From positions 1-44,771 of the forward strand of contig PPGI01000014.1 of NCBI GenBank assembly GCA_003173855.1: DNA of 44,771 nt, written 5' to 3'. This document shows, one piece after another, positions 6,393-40,447 of this stretch (position 1 is its first letter; the number at the start of each line of letters is the position of its first letter). This DNA is from Candidatus Zambryskiibacteriota bacterium (GTDB taxonomy: Bacteria > Patescibacteriota > Minisyncoccia > Phycocordibacterales > DATDWN01). The translations under genes and the position numbers were made by a program. Under the pieces are notes generated by a model. It was given only the letters and a program-made list of their open reading frames with translations, did no database searches and was not told the DNA's origin.

Positions 6393-6911
6393 ATGGCAAA
6401 AATTAATACATTACAAGATTCGTTTTTAGCGAAACTGCAGGCGCTTTACGACATCGAAAACGAGATCATAAAAGCCCTGCCAAAAATGGTGGAGGCAGCA
6501 AGTGATCCGGAATTAAAAGACGCGCTTAGCTCGCATTTAGAAGAAACAAAAGAACAAGCGCATAGGCTTGAGCAGGCATTTGAAATGCTTGAAGAAAAAC
6601 CGAAGAAATTAAAAGCCGAAGGTGTGCGGGGAATTATCGAAGACGGTAAATGGGTAATGGATGCTGATGCACCAGATGCGCTAAAAGATGCGATGCTGGC
6701 ATCTGCTGCTCGATATGTTGAGCATTACGAAATGGCAGGTTATATGTCTGCTATCGAGGAAGCAAGCCTTCTTGGCTACGATGACATTGCAGAATTGCTT
6801 TCCGATTCGCTTTCAGAAGAAAATGCAGCAGATGATAAATTAGTTTCAGTTATGAAAGATAGCATGGATGAATCACTCACTGCAGTCGGAGCGTCTGAAG
6901 AAGAGGAGTAA
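6393..6911 (+). CDS. YciE/YciF (DUF892) ferritin-like protein
   Basis: 'LYD.E......LPKM...A....L......HLEET..Q..RL' and 'VEHYEMA.Y' motifs. Confidence 0.9.
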   Translation: MAKINTLQDSFLAKLQALYDIENEIIKALPKMVEAASDPELKDALSSHLEETKEQAHRLEQAFEMLEEKPKKLKAEGVRGIIEDGKWVMDADAPDALKDAMLASAARYVEHYEMAGYMSAIEEASLLGYDDIAELLSDSLSEENAADDKLVSVMKDSMDESLTAVGASEEEE

Positions 6912-6922
6912 TAATTATTTAT

Positions 6923-7102
6923 ATGCCAACAAAATATGGACCAAAAACAAAAAAGAAGATGAAAAAGGTTATGCATGAGTGGAAGCATGGCGAGCTTAAG
7001 TCAGGTGGAAGTGGAGAAAAGGTAAAATCAAGGAAGCAGGCAATAGCTATCGGACTTTCTGAAGCTCGTCGTGGAGGTGGAAAGGTTCCAAGGAAGAAAT
7101 AG
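6923..7102 (+). CDS. DUF6496-like small basic protein (59 aa, below the ORF-track cutoff)
   Basis: Translated by hand: MPTKYGPKTKKKMKKVMHEWKHGELKSGGSGEKVKSRKQAIAIGLSEARRGGGKVPRKK. Confidence 0.88.
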   Translation: MPTKYGPKTKKKMKKVMHEWKHGELKSGGSGEKVKSRKQAIAIGLSEARRGGGKVPRKK

Positions 7103-9955: not shown

Positions 9956-10228
9956 ATGGCGAAATATGTAATTGGACTTGTAGTAATTGCCGCAGTAGCT
10001 TTTGGATGGTGGCATTGGCAGTCTAAACAACCATCAAAAGTTGCCGAAACACAAACAACAAATACGCAAAATCAAACAAATGGAACAAATGTTGCGTCAA
10101 GCATTAATGCAAACACTTCTTTCGATCAGGATCTCTCTACAATAGATACACACATGAATGCAGTTGATAATAGTAGAACATCGGTCGACCAGAGCTTCAA
10201 TGATAAGCCAGTTCAACAAACAGAATAA
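9956..10228 (+). CDS. small membrane-anchored protein
   Basis: N-terminal TM with a Thr/Asn-rich body. Confidence 0.75.
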   Translation: MAKYVIGLVVIAAVAFGWWHWQSKQPSKVAETQTTNTQNQTNGTNVASSINANTSFDQDLSTIDTHMNAVDNSRTSVDQSFNDKPVQQTE

Positions 10229-10237
10229 TAAACGAAT

Positions 10238-11047
10238 ATGAAAAATATAGTTAAAATTTCTAGTGTTCTTGTACTTAGCTCGATGCTTATCCTTCCATTT
10301 GCCGCTTATGCGTTGGATGTAAACGCAACTGTTAATGCAAATGCACAAGTTGGTGGAACAAACACTACTGTTGATGCAAAACTTCAAACAAGAATTGATA
10401 CTGCAAAAGACAGGGCAAATAAAGAAATCGATCGGCGAATTGATGCTCTAAATACTCTAACTTCGCGAGTTGGAGAACTAAAACGACTGACGGCGGACGA
10501 GAAAACAAATATTTCAGCAGCATTGTCTAACCAAATTACACTTTTGACTAATTTGAAGACAAAAATTGCAGCAGACACAGATATTACAACCCTGAAAGCT
10601 GATATAAAATCAATTACACAATCATACAGAATCTTTTTGGTTGTCTTGCCACAAGGTAGAATTGCTGCAGCTGCTGATGAAATAAATACAACTGCTGACC
10701 TTTTTGCAACACTTAGCGCAAAAATTCAGGCAAAAATTACAGACGCTCAAAATGCTGGTAAAGATGTTTCAAGCTTGAACACTTTGCTTACCGAGGCAAC
10801 AGCAAAAGTTGCTGATTCGAAGATCCAAGCTGATGCTTCAGTAGCGCACACTGCAAATTTGAAACCAGACAACGGTGATCAAGCTGTGATGAAAGCAAAC
10901 AATGATGCATTTAAAATGGCGCGTTCTGATTTAAAAATTGCTCACGAGGATCTAGTAACCGCTCGACAAGATGTTCAAAAAATCATTGTTCAACTCCGCC
11001 AATGGAATGTAGGGGCAAATGCGACAACAACGACAACAGTTCACTAA
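10238..11047 (+). CDS. secreted alpha-helical/coiled-coil protein
   Basis: Signal peptide (AYA-L), heptad-rich helices; terminator near 11065-11098. Confidence 0.8.
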   Translation: MKNIVKISSVLVLSSMLILPFAAYALDVNATVNANAQVGGTNTTVDAKLQTRIDTAKDRANKEIDRRIDALNTLTSRVGELKRLTADEKTNISAALSNQITLLTNLKTKIAADTDITTLKADIKSITQSYRIFLVVLPQGRIAAAADEINTTADLFATLSAKIQAKITDAQNAGKDVSSLNTLLTEATAKVADSKIQADASVAHTANLKPDNGDQAVMKANNDAFKMARSDLKIAHEDLVTARQDVQKIIVQLRQWNVGANATTTTTVH

Positions 11048-25135: not shown

Positions 25136-26297
25136 CCCAATTTCCGTAAGTCACTATCTTGATCAGCTTAATCGAACTCTTATAAAAGAGCGAGCAAAAA
25201 TTATTGGAGAAGTTTTAGAGGTAAAATTGTATCCAGAAAGAAGCTATCTTTATTTCACATTGAAAGATAAACAAGATCAAAGTTCGATTAATTGCTTTAT
25301 GTGGAAAAGAGATTTTATGATTTCTGGCATTGAATTGAAGGATGGTTTAGAAGTGATTGTTACCGCCTATCCAAATATTTATAAACCGAAAGGCACATTA
25401 ACATTGAATATTGAATTGATTGAACTTGTCGGTGAAGGCGCACTGCAAATTGCTTACGAAAAGTTAAAGAAGAAATTGGAATTGGAGGGTTTGTTTTCTC
25501 CACTCCGAAAAAGAAAAATTCCAGACTACCCCCACAGAATTGGAGTGATAACTTCAAGATCTGGAGCAGTTATAAACGATTTTCTATCTAATATTGGCAA
25601 ATTTGGATATGAAATTCTATTTGTCGATTCAAAAGTTGAAGGGCAAGAAGCTATCAGGGATCTAATGTCTGCAGTCAAAACTATGGAGAACAAGTATCTT
25701 GATGTTTTGATTTTAATGCGGGGTGGTGGATCACTTGAATCATTTCAATCTTTTAATAACGAAACTTTGGTGAGACAAATTGCAGATTTTCCTGCGCCAG
25801 TTATCACCGGAATTGGTCATGATAAAGATATTCCACTGGTTAGTTTGGTTTCAGATAGAAATGTTTCAACACCAACAGCGGTGGCAAATCTTTTGAATTC
25901 AAGTTGGAGTGAGGCAAAATCGAACATAAATTTAATTTGTGAAAGAATATTTTCAAGTTTTCAATCAAATATTATTGATGTTTTCCGAAAAGCTGAAAAT
26001 ACAATGTTTAGAGAGGCAGAAATTATAGGTTCAGAGATAAAAAGAATTGGAGAATTATTAAATCAGGCAAATAGGGAATTGTTTCGTGGCTTTGAAACAT
26101 TATCAAAAAATGCTGAGCAGTTTATAAATCAAAATGCGAAAACTATTGAACTCGACAGTCCAATGAGACAATTGAAAAAAGGCTACAGTATTGTAAGATC
26201 TCATGGTAAGATAATTCGGAAAATTAAAGATGTTAAATCTGGCGATGAATTAAATGTTTTTGTTTCAGATGGAGCAATCAAATCACGAGTAACCTAA
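25101..26297 (+). CDS. xseA: exodeoxyribonuclease VII large subunit
   Basis: 'YFTLKD', 'GVITS..GAV..D', 'RGGGS.E', 'GIGH..D', 'TPTA', 'L.KGYS'. Confidence 0.93.
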   Translation: MLEEKNTTKEPSPISVSHYLDQLNRTLIKERAKIIGEVLEVKLYPERSYLYFTLKDKQDQSSINCFMWKRDFMISGIELKDGLEVIVTAYPNIYKPKGTLTLNIELIELVGEGALQIAYEKLKKKLELEGLFSPLRKRKIPDYPHRIGVITSRSGAVINDFLSNIGKFGYEILFVDSKVEGQEAIRDLMSAVKTMENKYLDVLILMRGGGSLESFQSFNNETLVRQIADFPAPVITGIGHDKDIPLVSLVSDRNVSTPTAVANLLNSSWSEAKSNINLICERIFSSFQSNIIDVFRKAENTMFREAEIIGSEIKRIGELLNQANRELFRGFETLSKNAEQFINQNAKTIELDSPMRQLKKGYSIVRSHGKIIRKIKDVKSGDELNVFVSDGAIKSRVT

Positions 26298-32856: not shown

Positions 32857-33654
32857 ATGAAAAAAATTTTAATAATCGAAGACGATGTATTTTTGGGAGA
32901 TGTTTTACTCCAAAAAATGACTAAAGAAGGCTACGAGACAGAACTTGCACGGGATGGTAAAGAGGGTTTTGAAAAAATCAAAACAATGAAACCCGATCTT
33001 GTTTTGCTCGATATTGTTTTACCCAATATGAATGGCTACGAAATTCTCGAAGCAAAGCAAATTGATAAAAATATTTCCAGCATTCCGGTAATTGTTATTT
33101 CAAATTCGGGTCAGCCAGTTGAGATCAATCGTGTTCTAGAGTTTGGCGTTAAAGATTATCTTGTTAAAGCACAGTTTGATCCACAAGAAGTTTTGGAAAA
33201 AGTAAAAAATCAATTTTTAAGTGAAGCCGAAAAAAAGCCAAAGGAAACTTCTGACGTGCCTTCAGTTAGTTTAGAGGGTAAGAAAATTCTTTGGGTTGAA
33301 GACGATAAATTTTTAAATGATATTATTGCTAGAAAACTTGCTTCAACAAAATGCATTTTTTCTCATACAGCTGATGGAGAAGAAGCATTGCAGATGATTG
33401 CAAATGACAAACCAGACATAATTTTACTCGATATTATTCTTTCTGGAATTGATGGATATGAGATTTTGCGTCGAATAAAGAGTGACTCAAAAATGAAAGA
33501 TATTCCAGTAATTTTGCTTTCAAATCTTGGTCAGCCATCTGATACAGAAAAAGGGAAATCAATGGGCGCAGCAAGATTTCTTGTAAAAGCCACAGTTACT
33601 TTGGACGAAATTTTAGATGAGATAAAACAAGTCCTCGCTGAATCGAAGAAGTAG
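32857..33654 (+). CDS. response regulator with two receiver domains and no output domain
   Basis: Two 'IL.(I/V)EDD...PD...LDI.L....GYEIL...IPVI..SN...LVKA' modules. Confidence 0.93.
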   Translation: MKKILIIEDDVFLGDVLLQKMTKEGYETELARDGKEGFEKIKTMKPDLVLLDIVLPNMNGYEILEAKQIDKNISSIPVIVISNSGQPVEINRVLEFGVKDYLVKAQFDPQEVLEKVKNQFLSEAEKKPKETSDVPSVSLEGKKILWVEDDKFLNDIIARKLASTKCIFSHTADGEEALQMIANDKPDIILLDIILSGIDGYEILRRIKSDSKMKDIPVILLSNLGQPSDTEKGKSMGAARFLVKATVTLDEILDEIKQVLAESKK

Positions 33655-33701
33655 TTGACGAATTGTATCTTTCATATATACTAATTTATATACTAATTTA
33701 C

Positions 33702-33958
33702 GGAAAGGTGGGGTTTGCCCAGCTCGGAAAGCTCCAGGCCTTATCGGGGTCTGGTCCAGCCGAAACTGTCTCCTAATCGCCATCTCTGCTGTTTTAGCTA
33801 GAGATCGAAACACTCTGGCACCTCCTTCATTCGAGCTCCTTGCTCCACCTTCCATCATTTCATAGATCCTCCTAACTTCGGGTCAAGGGAGGCAGACCAC
33901 TTCGGTCTGAAAAGTACCCGTTATCAGGCGGTCTCAACGTGAGACCGCCTTTCGTTTT
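33702..33958 (+). ncRNA. candidate structured ncRNA, tandem paralog 1
   Basis: TTGACG(33655)-16-TATACT with duplicated -10; GGAAAGGTGGGG pairs with CTCCACCTTCC(33843-33853); several internal hairpins; terminator 33926-33958. Confidence 0.7.
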
Positions 33959-34002
33959 ATGCGCGCTTGACAAAAAATGAAGGTTCCTATATACTTAACT
34001 TC

Positions 34003-34317
34003 GGATGGTGGGTTGCGCTTTGACGACGTTTCTCGGATAACCCTTTCACGTTTATCTTCCGACTTCCGACTTCCGACTTCAGCGTTCCGTTTTCCGTTTC
34101 GCTTAGACGTTGATTGCGCCTTGTGCGCCGCACCGGCCGCGTAAGTGCCGATTCAAAAAAAAGAAAAAGACGAAAACGAGCCGGCAGCTAGCACCGGCAA
34201 GACCCCAGGGTTCGGCAACCCACCACCCACCAGTTCATTTAGAAGTATCATTTAGAGGAGTGAACAAAAAAAACACCCAGAATTGTAAAACCGTGCCACC
34301 GTGGCACGGTATTTTTT
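34003..34317 (+). ncRNA. candidate structured ncRNA, tandem paralog 2
   Basis: TTGACA(33967)-17-TATACT(33990), 7 nt, then GGATGGTGGGTTGC pairing with GCAACCCACCACCC(34215-34228); terminator 34290-34317. Confidence 0.7.
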
Positions 34318-34395
34318 ATTCCAAAAAATTGACAAAGTGTTATTGTCATGTATAATCACACGAGGTTAGTTCGTAAACAATAAGAGAGGTGAGAG

Positions 34396-34917
34396 ATGAA
34401 GATCCCGATTGTGCTCGAGAGGTTTCGAATGTACGTCAAAACTTTCGAAGGTTTTTTCGATGGGATGAAGGAGATCAGATCAATAACTCCGATCGGTCAA
34501 TCAGTGAGCCAGGCACTAGAAAGAGTTCCAGTTCCTGATGTGATGGTTCGAGTAGCAGATTTGCTCGAATTATCAGAAGCATATGTGATGTTTGCACTTT
34601 TGCATCAAGCATATTCCACAGGAAAAGATTTCAATCTACGTCACGTGTTTGCCAAAGCAAATTCAAAGGGCTTCACTTACAGAACCAAATCGGGATTCAT
34701 TTTCGGTTGGCGAAGAATGGGAAAGACTCAGATTTACAAATTCTTCGTCATTCTTGGACCCACATCCAAGTACAAATGGATTGAGGTGGCGGAACACAAT
34801 CTTCTGAACTTAGGTTGGCACAGGATGGTGGAAAGGAAGTACGTAAAATCGGAAGGTCTGATAGAACAGTTCGAGTTGAAGCTCGATCGAGTACACCAGG
34901 ACCGAATCGATCAGTAA
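34396..34917 (+). CDS. orphan basic/aromatic 173-aa protein
   Basis: TTGACA(34329)-16-TATAAT, GAGGTG SD, long hairpin 34950-35010 downstream. Confidence 0.78.
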   Translation: MKIPIVLERFRMYVKTFEGFFDGMKEIRSITPIGQSVSQALERVPVPDVMVRVADLLELSEAYVMFALLHQAYSTGKDFNLRHVFAKANSKGFTYRTKSGFIFGWRRMGKTQIYKFFVILGPTSKYKWIEVAEHNLLNLGWHRMVERKYVKSEGLIEQFELKLDRVHQDRIDQ

Positions 34918-35037
34918 GTAGCGGTTGTAATTGGGAATTCCACACATTCAAAAAGATATCGCAAGAGCTGTATTTATATAAAAATACAAAAATGCTCCGA
35001 TATCTTTTTTATTTTATAAAAAAATAGTAGTATTAAA

Positions 35038-35192
35038 TTTCTCGAACTACTTCTCGAAAAGAGACTACACAGTCGCAAGCCTGGCTCTTGTCAACGTCCT
35101 GCAAAGCAGGCTCATTGACAAGTTGCGGAAACGAGTACAAGCGAGTCGGCGCTGGCCGAATGAGCGGGCTCTTTTCGAAAAGTAGTGAGAAA
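35038..35192. mobile_element. MITE-like element with about 24-bp inverted ends
   Basis: TTTCTCGAACTACTTCTCGAAAAGAG ... CTCTTTTCGAAAAGTAGTGAGAAA around a GC-rich interior. Confidence 0.6.
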
Positions 35193-35199
35193 GAAATTT

Positions 35200-35289
35200 A
35201 TGGCAAAGTTCAAAATAAAACGTGAATTCGCTCCAGCCGGCGACCCAGCACTTTGCTTGCAAAGTGCTGGGCGAGAAGTGGTTATATAA
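35200..35289 (+). pseudogene. truncated duplicate of the uvrB 5' end, interrupted by a 28-bp palindrome
   Basis: MAKFKIKREFAPAGD then CCCAGCACTTTGC-TT-GCAAAGTGCTGGG (35244-35271) and a TAA stop; same frame as uvrB. Confidence 0.75.
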
Positions 35290-35298
35290 AATGCATCT

Positions 35299-37368
35299 AT
35301 GTCCCAAAATTTTTTCAAAATAAAACGTGAGTTTGCTCCGGCGGGAGATCAACCAAAAGCAATTAAAGAATTGGTTGACGGAGTAAAAAAAGGTCTCGAT
35401 AAACAGACTCTTTTAGGCGTGACTGGATCTGGTAAAACTTATACTATCGCAAATGTAATCGAACAAGTTCAAAAACCAACTTTAGTTATTGCTCACAACA
35501 AAACACTGGCTGCACAACTGGCGCAAGAATATCGAGAATTTTTCCCAGAAAACGCTGTGCATTATTTTGTTTCTTATTACGACTTCTATCAACCAGAAGC
35601 TTACATGCCAGTTTCTGATACTTATATTGAAAAGGAGGCAATGGTAAACGAAGAAATTGAGAGGCTTCGTCACGCTTCAACTCAAGCCTTACTCACTCGG
35701 AAAGATGTAATCATTGTGGCATCAGTTTCCTGCATTTACGGTCTCGGTTCTCCAGTTGAATATGAGAAAGTAAATATGCGAATTGAAAAAGGGAAAACAA
35801 TTTCCCGCACAGATTTTATCAGGCGACTGATTGATATTCATTTTGAGCGCACTTCAGCTGATTTAACTCCAGGACAATTTCGAGCAACAGGAAATTGGAT
35901 TGAAATCATGCCAGTTTCAGAAAAAGTAATTCACAGAATCGAAATTGAAGGAAACAAAATTAAAGAAATTCAAAAAATAAACGCAATCACTCGGGAGATT
36001 ATCGAAAATATTGATTTATTTTTCCTTTATCCTGCAAAACACTTTATTTCAAACGATGAACAAAGTGAGAGGGCATTCAGGACGATCAAAGCTGAATTGA
36101 AAGATCGATTGGCGGAATTAGAAAAGGAAGGAAAACTTTTAGAAGTTGAAAGACTGAAGCGTCGAACAACATATGACCTGGCAATGATTCGCGAAATGGG
36201 TTATTGCAACGGAATTGAAAATTATTCGAGACATTTTTCGGGCAAAGCTCCTGGCGAACCACCAGACACATTGCTTTCTTATTTTCCTCACAAAGCAGAT
36301 GGTAGTGCCGACTTTCTAACAGTCATAGATGAGTCGCACGTTACTGTTCCTCAAATTGGTGGAATGTATGCAGGAGATGCTTCTCGAAAGCAAAGTTTGG
36401 TTGAGTATGGCTTCAGACTCCCAAGTGCAAAAGATAATCGACCTTTAAAATTTGATGAGTTTGAGGAACGAGTAGGACAGACCATATATACGTCTGCAAC
36501 TCCTGGAGAATATGAAAAAGAAAATTCAAAGCAAATTGTTGAGCAAGTCATTCGTCCGACAGGATTAGTTGATCCGATCGTAGAAGTTCGTGGGATTGTA
36601 GAAAAAAGCCAATATCGCGGACAAATTTTTGACATGATTGCGGAAGCCGAAAAAGCCATTCAAAAAGGTGGACGTGTCATTGCTACTACGCTTACTAAAA
36701 AAATGGCAGAAGATTTGTCTGAGTATCTCAAGGAAAAAGGTTTACGTGCAGAATATTTGCATAGTGGAATTAAAACAATAGAGCGAATTGAAATACTCAC
36801 TCGGCTTCGTCGAGGCGAATTTGACGTGCTTGTTGGGGTAAATCTTTTGCGTGAAGGTCTTGATTTGCCAGAAGTGACTTTGATTGGGATTTTAGATGCT
36901 GACAAAGAAGGTTTTTTGCGATCCGAGACTTCACTTATTCAAATTATTGGTCGAGCAGCTAGAAATACTGAGGGCAAAGTCATTTTGTATGCAGACAATC
37001 TAACTCGATCGATGAAGACTGCAATAGATGAAACAAATAGACGCAGAGCACTCCAAATCGAATACAACAAAAAACATAGCATTACTCCAAAAACAATTAT
37101 TAAAAAGATTCAGGATATTACCGATCAGCTTAAGAGTGAACACGCTAAAACTGTTGAGTCACTGCTTCAATTTGATAACAAAATGTTTGAAAAAGACCCG
37201 AAAAAATTTATTGCAACAAAAGAAAAGCAAATGGATAACGCCGTAAAAATTTTGGATTTTGAAACAGCAGCAATTTTGCGTGATGAAATTTTAGAACTTC
37301 AAAAAAAGTTTGAGCTTAGTAAACCAAAAAAAATTAAAAATCCAAGGAACAAGGATTTACTGAGATAA
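35299..37368 (+). CDS. uvrB: excinuclease ABC subunit B
   Basis: GVTGSGKT, 'YYDFYQPEAY', DESH, 'NLLREGLDLPEV', 'QIIGRAARN', C-terminal UVR motif. Confidence 0.98.
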   Translation: MSQNFFKIKREFAPAGDQPKAIKELVDGVKKGLDKQTLLGVTGSGKTYTIANVIEQVQKPTLVIAHNKTLAAQLAQEYREFFPENAVHYFVSYYDFYQPEAYMPVSDTYIEKEAMVNEEIERLRHASTQALLTRKDVIIVASVSCIYGLGSPVEYEKVNMRIEKGKTISRTDFIRRLIDIHFERTSADLTPGQFRATGNWIEIMPVSEKVIHRIEIEGNKIKEIQKINAITREIIENIDLFFLYPAKHFISNDEQSERAFRTIKAELKDRLAELEKEGKLLEVERLKRRTTYDLAMIREMGYCNGIENYSRHFSGKAPGEPPDTLLSYFPHKADGSADFLTVIDESHVTVPQIGGMYAGDASRKQSLVEYGFRLPSAKDNRPLKFDEFEERVGQTIYTSATPGEYEKENSKQIVEQVIRPTGLVDPIVEVRGIVEKSQYRGQIFDMIAEAEKAIQKGGRVIATTLTKKMAEDLSEYLKEKGLRAEYLHSGIKTIERIEILTRLRRGEFDVLVGVNLLREGLDLPEVTLIGILDADKEGFLRSETSLIQIIGRAARNTEGKVILYADNLTRSMKTAIDETNRRRALQIEYNKKHSITPKTIIKKIQDITDQLKSEHAKTVESLLQFDNKMFEKDPKKFIATKEKQMDNAVKILDFETAAILRDEILELQKKFELSKPKKIKNPRNKDLLR

Positions 37369-40221: not shown

Positions 40222-40259
40222 AGAAAGCGCCGGTTCCCCGGCGCTCCATTCAATGATAT

Positions 40260-40376
40260 TCAAAGATTGGGATCGTACTCTTTCGGCAGGGTGCCCTTTC
40301 GGACCTTTGCTCTTATTCCATTGCCGACACAGATCATGATGACCAGAGCTACGATTGCAATCAAAACTTCTCGCAT
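40260..40376 (-). CDS. 38-aa single-TM peptide (not in ORF track)
   Basis: MREVLIAIVALVIMICVGNGIRAKVRKGTLPKEYDPNL; TTGACA near 40420, GGAGG SD, hairpin AGCGCCGG/CCGGCGCT at 40225-40245. Confidence 0.7.
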   Translation of the reverse strand: MREVLIAIVALVIMICVGNGIRAKVRKGTLPKEYDPNL

Positions 40377-40447
40377 GCAAACCTCCAATCCACAGAATAA
40401 CACTATAATAGATAATGTCAAGAAACGACAAAGGCGCCGGAAGGCGC

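What the first reader, a model, noticed from the sequence alone, without database searches (positions are those of the whole stretch)
33655..34950. Tandem paralogous ncRNAs with conserved ends and swapped interiors, followed by an orphan protein: candidate new RNA/RNP system
Seen: three consecutive units, each with its own sigma70 promoter. Units 1 and 2 have no credible ORF. Each begins 7 nt after a TATACT with a related 5' end (GGAAAGGTGGGGTTTGC vs GGATGGTGGGTTGC). That end pairs with a 3' strand whose downstream context is also conserved (CCACCttCCAtCAtTTCAT--AG at 33845 vs CCACCacCCAcCAgTTCATttAG at 34220). A tail and a strong terminator follow. The enclosed interiors (about 130 and 200 nt) share no obvious similarity. 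The helix of unit 2 ends in A-CCA, like an acceptor stem. Unit 3 encodes a 173-aa Lys/Arg/aromatic-rich orphan. Inference: an RNA family with a fixed handle and variable cargo (guide, decoy or scaffold), possibly bound by the neighbouring protein. I do not recognise it as tmRNA, RNase P, SRP or 6S.
Basis: partly seen in the sequence, partly recalled or inferred. Interest (0 to 1): 0.85.

Follow-up and report, generated by a model that had tools for sequence, protein, structure and literature searches.

The report
Tandem orphan small-RNA genes near uvrB
Two neighbouring stretches in a very small soil-bacterium genome look like genes for structured small RNAs that were found in no other genome searched, so they are candidates for an expression test rather than an established new RNA system.

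Summary
The anatomy is real. Three near-consensus sigma-70 promoters lie in a row on the + strand. Units 1 (33702-33957) and 2 (34003-34317) end in intrinsic terminators, have no credible ORF, are 50-55% G+C in a 36.8% genome, and fold better than shuffles. In each, the predicted 5' end pairs with a distal 3' strand. No Rfam family matches, and tmRNA and RNase P RNA lie elsewhere in the genome.

The "fixed handle, variable cargo" family is not supported beyond these two copies. I found no homolog in 40 genomes of the genus. The handle motif has no credible copy in 400 genomes of the order. Unanchored alignment of the two units is not significant; only the position-anchored matches are unlikely by chance.

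The whole 1.6 kb between the response-regulator gene and uvrB is extra DNA in a variable tgt-uvrB interval. The 173-aa protein belongs to a small family of unknown fold that is missing from 400 related genomes. Its link to the RNAs could not be tested.

Best reading: two lineage-specific stand-alone small RNA genes, probably a diverged tandem duplicate, with unknown targets. No RNA data exist. Interest is modest.

The parts
33655..33682 (+). Promoter of unit 1 (TTGACG-16-TATACT). A second TATACT follows 12 nt downstream (33689-33694), and the predicted start at 33702 lies 7 nt after it.
   Evidence: 10/12 match; sequence; D6 (duplicated TATATACTAATTTA)
33702..33861 (+). Unit 1 core. GGAAAGGUGGGG at the 5' end pairs with CUCCACCUUCC, closing a 54% G+C multibranch domain. 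AUCA follows the helix.
   Evidence: fold; z -3.9 for the whole unit; helix counts; no credible ORF
33862..33925 (+). Unit 1 tail: single-stranded UUUCAUAGAU, then two small hairpins. The first holds a CCUCC that the fold pairs with GGGAGG.
33926..33957 (+). Intrinsic terminator of unit 1 (11-pair stem, T run).
33967..33995 (+). Promoter of unit 2 (TTGACA-17-TATACT).
   Evidence: 11/12
34003..34232 (+). Unit 2 core. GGAUGGUGGGUUGC pairs with GCAACCCACCACCC (14 pairs, one A-C mismatch), followed by ACCA. The interior holds a CTTCCGA repeat run and a purine-rich A stretch.
   Evidence: (I16, D20)
34233..34289 (+). Unit 2 tail: GUUCAUUUAGA, then a hairpin and an A-rich spacer.
34290..34317 (+). 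Intrinsic terminator of unit 2 (9-pair stem, T run).
34329..34356 (+). Promoter of unit 3 (TTGACA-16-TATAAT, 12/12).
34396..34917 (+). 173-aa protein gene with an upstream AGAGAGGTGAGAG ribosome-binding region. It belongs to a small family with the conserved motif GFxYRTxSGxIFGWR. The fold is unassigned.
34950..35009 (+). Hairpin with 12-nt perfect arms and a T run after the protein gene; probable terminator of unit 3.
   Evidence: I19; sequence

Best explanation
Units 1 and 2 are two stand-alone genes for structured small RNAs that are specific to this species or a very narrow lineage. They are most likely the diverged products of a local tandem duplication.

Shown by sequence:
- They sit in accessory DNA between the response-regulator gene and uvrB.
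- Each has a near-consensus sigma-70 promoter, so no activator need be assumed.
- Each ends at an intrinsic terminator.

Predicted by folding:
- The transcript starts with GG at the 5' strand of a terminal helix.
- That helix clamps a G+C-rich multibranch domain of about 160 nt (unit 1) or 230 nt (unit 2).
- It leaves a short single-stranded linker, CA(U/G)UUCAU..AGA, which is shared by both units, followed by one or two hairpins.

Inferred, not shown:
- The clamp and the G+C-rich core make a stable RNA.
- The RNA acts in trans, without Hfq, CsrA or Ro60, either through the exposed linker and C-rich stretches pairing with ribosome-binding regions of mRNAs, or as a binding platform for an unknown protein.
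- Which target or partner it has is unknown.
For: - Promoters of 10/12 and 11/12 and canonical terminators bound each unit.
- There is no credible ORF, and the three mechanical frames tested have no Pfam hit.
- G+C is 50-55% against 36.8% for the genome.
- Fold z-scores are -3.9 and -2.9.
- The terminal helix keeps 23/24 cells paired, with 2 pairs changed on both sides.
- The 3' motif occurs only twice in the genome, and the anchored matches are unlikely by chance.
- Both units pass a strict filter (promoter to terminator, no ORF of 45 aa, G+C 45% or more) that only 7 places in the genome pass.
- No Rfam family matches at permissive thresholds.
- tmRNA and RNase P RNA lie elsewhere.
- The units are single-copy, so they are not a repeat element.
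Against: - No RNA run holds the region, so transcription is unproven.
- No homolog was found in 40 genus genomes. The same BLASTN method finds RNase P RNA in 29 of those 40, so no selection across species can be shown.
- nhmmer and unanchored alignment do not support relatedness of the two units.
- Start-anchored helices of this length are as common in shuffles.
- The two-sequence covariation is reached by 121/500 shuffles.
- No complementary target longer than 13 nt exists in the genome.
- The atypical composition and the location in inserted DNA fit acquired, possibly decaying, sequence equally well.
Confidence: 0.5

Rival explanations
1. The units are non-functional remains of horizontally acquired DNA. 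The G+C-rich segments came in with the 173-aa gene or earlier insertions. The promoter-like and terminator-like sites are leftovers or chance, and the terminal pairings are incidental.
For: - Three relatives have the response-regulator gene within about 15-50 nt of uvrB, so about 1.6 kb is extra here.
- The composition is atypical.
- There is no conservation in the genus.
- The protein gene was found in 0/400 other genomes of the order.
- A multi-copy repeat and a partial copy of the uvrB 5' end lie next door.
- Helix length and unanchored similarity are at chance level.
Against: - Three promoters of 10-12/12 lie in register with two strong terminators on one strand, and each promoter places the start at the helix.
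- The folds beat shuffles.
- In a 37% G+C reduced genome, unselected G+C-rich DNA would be expected to decay (general knowledge, not tested here).
Confidence: 0.25
2. This is an RNA-protein cassette: the two RNAs are bound or used by the neighbouring 173-aa protein, and the three units travel together as an accessory module.
For: - All three units lie on the same strand and are adjacent, and all are absent from relatives.
- The protein is a real, conserved small family of unknown function.
- Its model is confident, with pLDDT 79.
Against: - Each unit has its own promoter and terminator, so co-expression is not implied.
- Nothing marks the protein as RNA-binding: there is no Pfam or PDB match, and the best fold scores are Foldseek TM 0.3 or less and Z 5.5.
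- Adjacency alone is weak evidence.
Confidence: 0.1
3. The units are cis-acting leaders or attenuators. Transcription from the upstream promoters reads through the terminators conditionally and tunes the 173-aa gene and uvrB downstream.
For: - The units are on the same strand as the downstream genes.
- In two relatives (G036, G028) a comparable unit with a terminator ends about 25 nt before uvrB.
Against: - The 173-aa gene has its own 12/12 promoter, 19 nt after the stem of unit 2's terminator.
- No alternative anti-terminator pairing was evident in the folds. I did not search for one systematically.
- A sensing leader would be expected to be conserved, and it is not.
Confidence: 0.08
4. The units are divergent members of a known class that Rfam models miss: a tRNA-like or tmRNA-like acceptor mimic (unit 2 ends in ACCA), 6S RNA, Y RNA or a retron RNA.
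For: - Pairing of the two ends is shared with all these classes.
- ACCA follows the helix of unit 2.
- No 6S RNA was found anywhere in the genome, so that role is open.
Against: - No Rfam hit appears even at E up to 10, and ARAGORN finds nothing in the region.
- Unit 1 has AUCA.
- There is no T arm, and the genome's own tmRNA gene does not encode CCA.
- The folds are multibranched, not a rod with a central bubble.
- No TROVE/Ro60 protein is encoded.
- The neighbouring ORF has no reverse-transcriptase domain.
Confidence: 0.05

Closest known systems
Tandem paralogous base-pairing sRNAs such as OmrA/OmrB or PrrF1/PrrF2 (recalled from the literature, not from a call)
   Same: Two adjacent genes on the same strand, each with its own promoter and terminator, with similar ends and a divergent middle.
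   Different: Those act with Hfq through a free conserved 5' seed. Here no Hfq gene was found, and the shared 5' end is predicted to be locked in a helix. There is no conservation outside one genome.
Bacterial Y RNAs (YrlA/YrlB) with Ro60/Rsr (recalled)
   Same: Neighbouring paralogous RNAs whose 5' and 3' ends form a conserved stem while the interior differs, encoded next to a protein gene.
   Different: No TROVE-domain protein is encoded in the genome. No Rfam match appears at E up to 10. The neighbouring protein has 173 aa and is unrelated by Pfam.
6S RNA (RF00013)
   Same: An abundant stand-alone RNA closed by pairing of its ends. Some bacteria have two paralogs (recalled). None was detected elsewhere in this genome.
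   Different: No covariance-model hit. The predicted folds are multibranched rather than a long rod with a central bubble.
tmRNA / tRNA-like acceptor ends
   Same: Unit 2 has a G-start helix followed by ACCA.
   Different: The true tmRNA is at contig C4 38184-38559 with 106.7 bits. The region has no T arm and no tag frame, ARAGORN is silent there, and unit 1 has AUCA.
The unit upstream of uvrB in two relatives (G036 and G028)
   Same: Same locus and same layout, with a GGAA start, terminal helix, NCCA and terminator. It shares a hairpin, CTCCAGGCCTT-N4/5-GGGTCTG, with unit 1. Its own helix shows 2 compensatory pairs between the two relatives.
   Different: A covariance model of it scores unit 1 at only 5.4 bits, E 0.42, although the match boundaries are exactly 33702-33860. 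It finds no other genus genome. The 18-nt motif occurs at the chance rate across 185,579 species genomes: 36 hits, one of them in a Parcubacteria record.

Membership tests
Any Rfam 15 family | A covariance-model match at or near the gathering score | tested here: not met
   only 3 tRNAs in the window at gathering thresholds; the best hits in 33600-34420 are terminator look-alikes at E of 1.5 or more.
tmRNA | tRNA-like domain with a T arm, a tag reading frame and one copy per genome | tested here: not met
   ARAGORN finds none in the region. The genome's tmRNA is at C4:38184-38559 with 106.7 bits.
SRP RNA (small or large) | Domain IV hairpin matched by RF00169 or RF01854, with an Ffh partner present | tested here: not met
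   No hit in the genome. RF00169 matched 0/61 genomes and the Ffh M domain 0/61. No SRP54 GTPase or FtsY scored above cut-off. The loss in Parcubacteria is published (PMC4508563; abstract and one passage read).
6S RNA | RF00013 match | tested here: not met
   Searches gave no hit.
6S RNA | Long rod with a large central bubble, binding of RNA polymerase, and templating of product RNA | tested here: inconclusive
   The minimum-free-energy folds are multibranched, but single-sequence folds are unreliable. Binding cannot be tested here.
Y RNA / Ro60 RNP | A Ro60 (TROVE) protein encoded in the genome | tested here: not met
   no candidate for PF05731 in the genome. The control search matched Deinococcus.
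Retron msr-msd RNA | A reverse transcriptase gene directly downstream of the RNA | tested here: not met
   The downstream ORF has no Pfam domain at E up to 1. I did not run a genome-wide search for a reverse transcriptase.
tRNA-like acceptor mimic | A 7-pair acceptor stem stacked on a T arm, a discriminator base plus CCA, shared by the members | tested here: not met
   ACCA occurs only in unit 2, and unit 1 has AUCA. There is no T arm, and the tRNA and tmRNA models are silent.
Hfq- or CsrA-dependent sRNA | The chaperone or partner protein is encoded | tested here: not met
   Hfq: no match. CsrA: only 19.9 bits, below the cut-off of 27, inside a 380-aa frame.
Repeat element (REP/MITE-like) | Several copies per genome | tested here: not met
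   Units 1 and 2 match only themselves in the genome, while the neighbouring 35046-35186 element has 9 copies.
   The genome holds only the two copies. In 400 genomes of the order, all 29 of the 40 one-mismatch hits that I inspected lie in coding frames without a helix or promoter. 11 hits were not inspected.

The most novel reading that the evidence does not exclude
The tgt-uvrB interval of this Parcubacteria genus may be a hotspot where fast-turnover, strongly expressed, end-clamped RNA genes are gained and replaced, sometimes beside small accessory proteins. Units 1 and 2, together with the 173-aa protein, would then be one such accessory RNA-protein module, for instance in conflict with phages or hosts, and the shared handle would be the part the protein recognises.
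Probability: 0.1. Interest if true: 0.7.

Novelty: new member of a known kind. Interest (0 to 1): 0.3.

Why it matters
Small-RNA biology in the Candidate Phyla Radiation is almost uncharted. My one literature search on this (search listing only) returned no paper that holds the term Patescibacteria.

If these units are expressed, a 651-kb genome without Hfq, CsrA, Ro60 or SRP still spends near-consensus promoters on lineage-specific structured RNAs. That would give two concrete, testable candidates.

As it stands, the finding is a well-formed prediction without expression or conservation data. It is not a new system.

Tried and rejected
Homolog searches that found nothing:
- BLASTN of the units against 60 relatives gave only 24-31-nt hits.
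- nhmmer against 29 uvrB-upstream regions gave nothing better than E 6.9.
- BLASTN against the phage collection found nothing.
- The handle motif in 400 genomes of the order gave coding hits only. I counted about 16 hits for the reversed control pattern.
- The hairpin motif across the species genomes occurred at the chance rate.

Expression:
- No RNA holder is listed for the region.
- Laying contigs of four soil DNA runs gave two error-free pieces, 33591-34152 and 34279-35086, in run X1, which may be the source sample. No listed piece spans 34153-34278.

Protein:
- There was no Pfam hit and no PDB sequence hit.
- A first model from 3 sequences was unusable, with pLDDT 39.7.
- The second model, with pLDDT 79, had no Foldseek match at E<=0.001 and a best Z of 5.5.
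- The protein atlas gave no usable hit.
- tblastn against phages and plasmids found nothing.
- The search for related loci found nothing in the genome, viral or metagenome collections.

Target prediction:
- The longest perfect complement to either RNA elsewhere in the genome is 13 nt, which is chance size.

Readings rejected:
- Minus-strand gene. An 81-aa frame (33613-33858) follows AGGAGG and ATG, but it runs through unit 1's promoter into the end of the response-regulator gene. It has no promoter in the scan and no Pfam hit. I ran no further search on it.
- Type I toxin mRNA. There is no hydrophobic small ORF.

Similar units in relatives:
- I printed only 12 of the 29 upstream regions, chosen for a G+C-rich profile.
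- By eye, 7 of the 12 hold end-paired G+C-rich segments.
- Only 1 of the 24 full-length regions passes the strict automated filter, so I do not rely on this.

- Supplements of PMC4508563 were not seen.

Full report
**What is there.** The window is contig C10 of a 651-kb, 16-contig genome that is 97% complete. Its relatives include a record titled Parcubacteria.

The + strand gene order is FKBP isomerase, tgt, a FIST-domain protein, a histidine kinase, a double-receiver response regulator (32857-33654), the finding, then uvrB (35299-37368) and uvrA.

Between the regulator and uvrB lie 1644 nt that hold:
- unit 1: promoter 33655-33682, predicted start 33702, terminator 33926-33950;
- unit 2: promoter 33967-33995, predicted start 34003, terminator 34290-34310;
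- unit 3: promoter 34329-34356 and a 173-aa ORF at 34396-34917.

The promoters match the consensus in 10, 11 and 12 of 12 positions. The genome has only 186 sites of this quality on both strands, so three within 700 nt of one strand is not a chance density.

Units 1 and 2 contain no ATG-started frame with a ribosome-binding site. The three mechanical frames tested have no Pfam hit. The units are 50-55% G+C in a 36.8% G+C genome. They fold with z = -3.9 and -2.9 against dinucleotide shuffles.

**The shared ends.** In both minimum-free-energy folds the first 12-14 nt pair with a strand 146-219 nt downstream. On the two-sequence alignment, 23 of 24 cells of a 12-pair helix are paired, and two pairs changed on both sides. 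When the partner is slid by 1-3 columns only 42-59% pair.

- With two sequences, 121 of 500 shuffles do as well on the helix counts.
- A start-anchored helix of 11 or more contiguous pairs is found downstream of 10/186 promoters and in 19/558 shuffles.
- nhmmer sees no similarity between the units.
- The best local alignment is reached by 430/2000 shuffles, and the 5' alignment by 51/2000.

What speaks for relatedness is position:
- Unit 1's 3' 19-mer has three other matches with up to 4 substitutions in 1.3 Mb of strand. One is the equivalent site of unit 2.
- Its 5' 17-mer has about 43 other loci within 4 edits. One is unit 2's predicted start.
- The consensus 3' motif occurs only at these two sites.

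I take the units as probable diverged tandem duplicates. The tests were chosen after the match was seen.

**Known RNA families are excluded.** Rfam gives nothing at gathering thresholds, and nothing credible at E up to 10. ARAGORN finds nothing in the region.
- The genome's tmRNA is on C4 (106.7 bits). Its RNase P RNA is on C8 (72.5 bits, 504 nt).
- 6S RNA was not found anywhere.
- SRP RNA, the Ffh M domain, the SRP54 GTPase and FtsY are missing here. SRP RNA and the Ffh M domain are also missing in 61 of 61 genomes of the order sampled. This agrees with the published loss of SRP in Parcubacteria (PMC4508563; abstract and one passage read).
- No TROVE/Ro60, no Hfq, and no CsrA above cut-off is encoded. 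The Y-RNA, Hfq-sRNA and Csr-sponge models therefore lack their partners.
- The ACCA after unit 2's helix is real, but unit 1 has AUCA and there is no T arm. The genome's tmRNA gene does not encode CCA.

**No family beyond the two copies.** BLASTN of the units against 60 relatives gave five hits of 24-31 nt. The same method recovers RNase P RNA in 29 of 40 genus genomes. Another orphan unit of this genome (C1) also finds nothing.

The handle motif with up to one mismatch gave 40 hits in 400 other genomes of the order. I inspected 29. All lie inside open frames of 65 aa or more, with upstream helices of at most 7 pairs, against 10-11 pairs for the two real sites.

One lead remains. Two relatives (G036, G028) have a unit directly upstream of uvrB with a GGAA start, a 19-pair terminal helix, (A/G)CCACCA and a terminator. 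It shares the hairpin CTCCAGGCCTT-N4/5-GGGTCTG with unit 1. That unit shows two compensatory pairs between the two relatives. However:
- A covariance model of it scores unit 1 at only 5.4 bits (E 0.42 in 3 kb), although the match boundaries are exactly 33702-33860.
- The model finds no other genus genome.
- The motif occurs at the chance rate in the species collection.

**The setting is accessory DNA.** In three relatives the response-regulator gene ends within about 15-50 nt of uvrB. In most other relatives tgt lies upstream, with varied content in between, including small excisionase-like helix-turn-helix ORFs.

In this genome the interval also holds:
- a 140-nt structured repeat with 9 copies in the genome;
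- an 81%-identical copy of the first 42 nt of the conserved uvrB coding start.

The 173-aa protein has two relatives at 53-56% identity and a handful of distant ones. It was found in none of 400 other genomes of the order and has no recognisable domain or fold. The DNA around its relatives could not be fetched, so co-occurrence with the RNAs is untested.

**Verdict.** The claim that the units are non-coding transcription units is the best reading, at about 0.5. The main rival is inert acquired DNA, at about 0.25.

The proposed RNA/RNP system rests on two copies in one genome plus adjacency. Nothing found here raises it above a possibility. There is no expression evidence of any kind.

I rate this as a new, orphan member of the ordinary kind "stand-alone bacterial small RNA gene". 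It is of modest interest until transcripts are shown.

Noticed in passing
window 35046-35186 (+); other copies at C9:5677-5791, C1:8231-8377, C7:79495-79615, C7:56017-56135, C4:13769-13923, C4:61894-62013, C12:25967-26085, C11:18016-18175: A structured repeat of about 140 nt occurs in 9 copies at 72-94% identity in a 651-kb genome, always between genes and in either orientation. The outer arms and an inner hairpin differ between copies but stay complementary within each copy (for example CCTGC/GCAGG, CTAGC/GCTAG, CCCCGCC/GGGCGGAG), while a CTTGTCAACGTC...CTCATTGACAAG core is conserved. Related copies with other flanks occur in the soil contigs. Rfam has no match. It may be more interesting than the finding itself.
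   Followed up: partly
window 35209-35250 versus 35314-35355; hairpin 35244-35271: An 81%-identical copy of the uvrB 5' coding end (FKIKREFAPAGD) lies 105 nt upstream of the real start, opening a 29-codon frame. A perfect 13-pair hairpin follows it. None of the 29 relatives' upstream regions has such a copy. It looks like a scar of rearrangement at this hotspot.
   Followed up: partly
whole genome and 60 relatives of the order: SRP RNA, the Ffh M domain, the SRP54 GTPase and FtsY were not found here. RF00169 and PF02978 each matched 0 of 61 genomes. The loss is already published for Parcubacteria (PMC4508563).
   Followed up: yes
G000 C1(-) 6717-7077; C4(+) 10006-10283; C4(+) 125-385; C7(+) 26003-26296; C7(+) 147569-147765: Five further G+C-rich, ORF-free stretches behind consensus promoters have no Rfam match, and four of them pass the strict filter. 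The C1 unit has no homolog in the genus either. This small genome seems to hold several unknown RNA genes.
   Followed up: partly
window 40224-40421 (-): A promoter-to-terminator unit here encodes a 38-aa hydrophobic peptide (MREVLIAIVALVIMICVG...) behind a GAGG site. It is probably a small membrane protein gene missed by length cut-offs.
   Followed up: no
loci L021-L049 (upstream of uvrB in 29 relatives): The tgt-uvrB interval varies in the genus. Some species have nothing there (L046). Some have the two-component cassette (L049, L045, L024). Some have excisionase-like HTH ORFs (L023, L039, L022) or pilin-like genes (L047, L025). By eye, some have end-paired G+C-rich segments.
   Followed up: partly
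G000 C8:4436-4939: The RNase P RNA is 504 nt long and scores 72.5 bits, below the Rfam gathering score of 100. Its sequence has long A+T-rich stretches that look like insertions between the conserved cores.
   Followed up: no
protein P0007 (1958 aa): A very long protein matches the 173-aa family profile in 17 separate stretches, so the domain may also occur as a tandem repeat in giant proteins.
   Followed up: no
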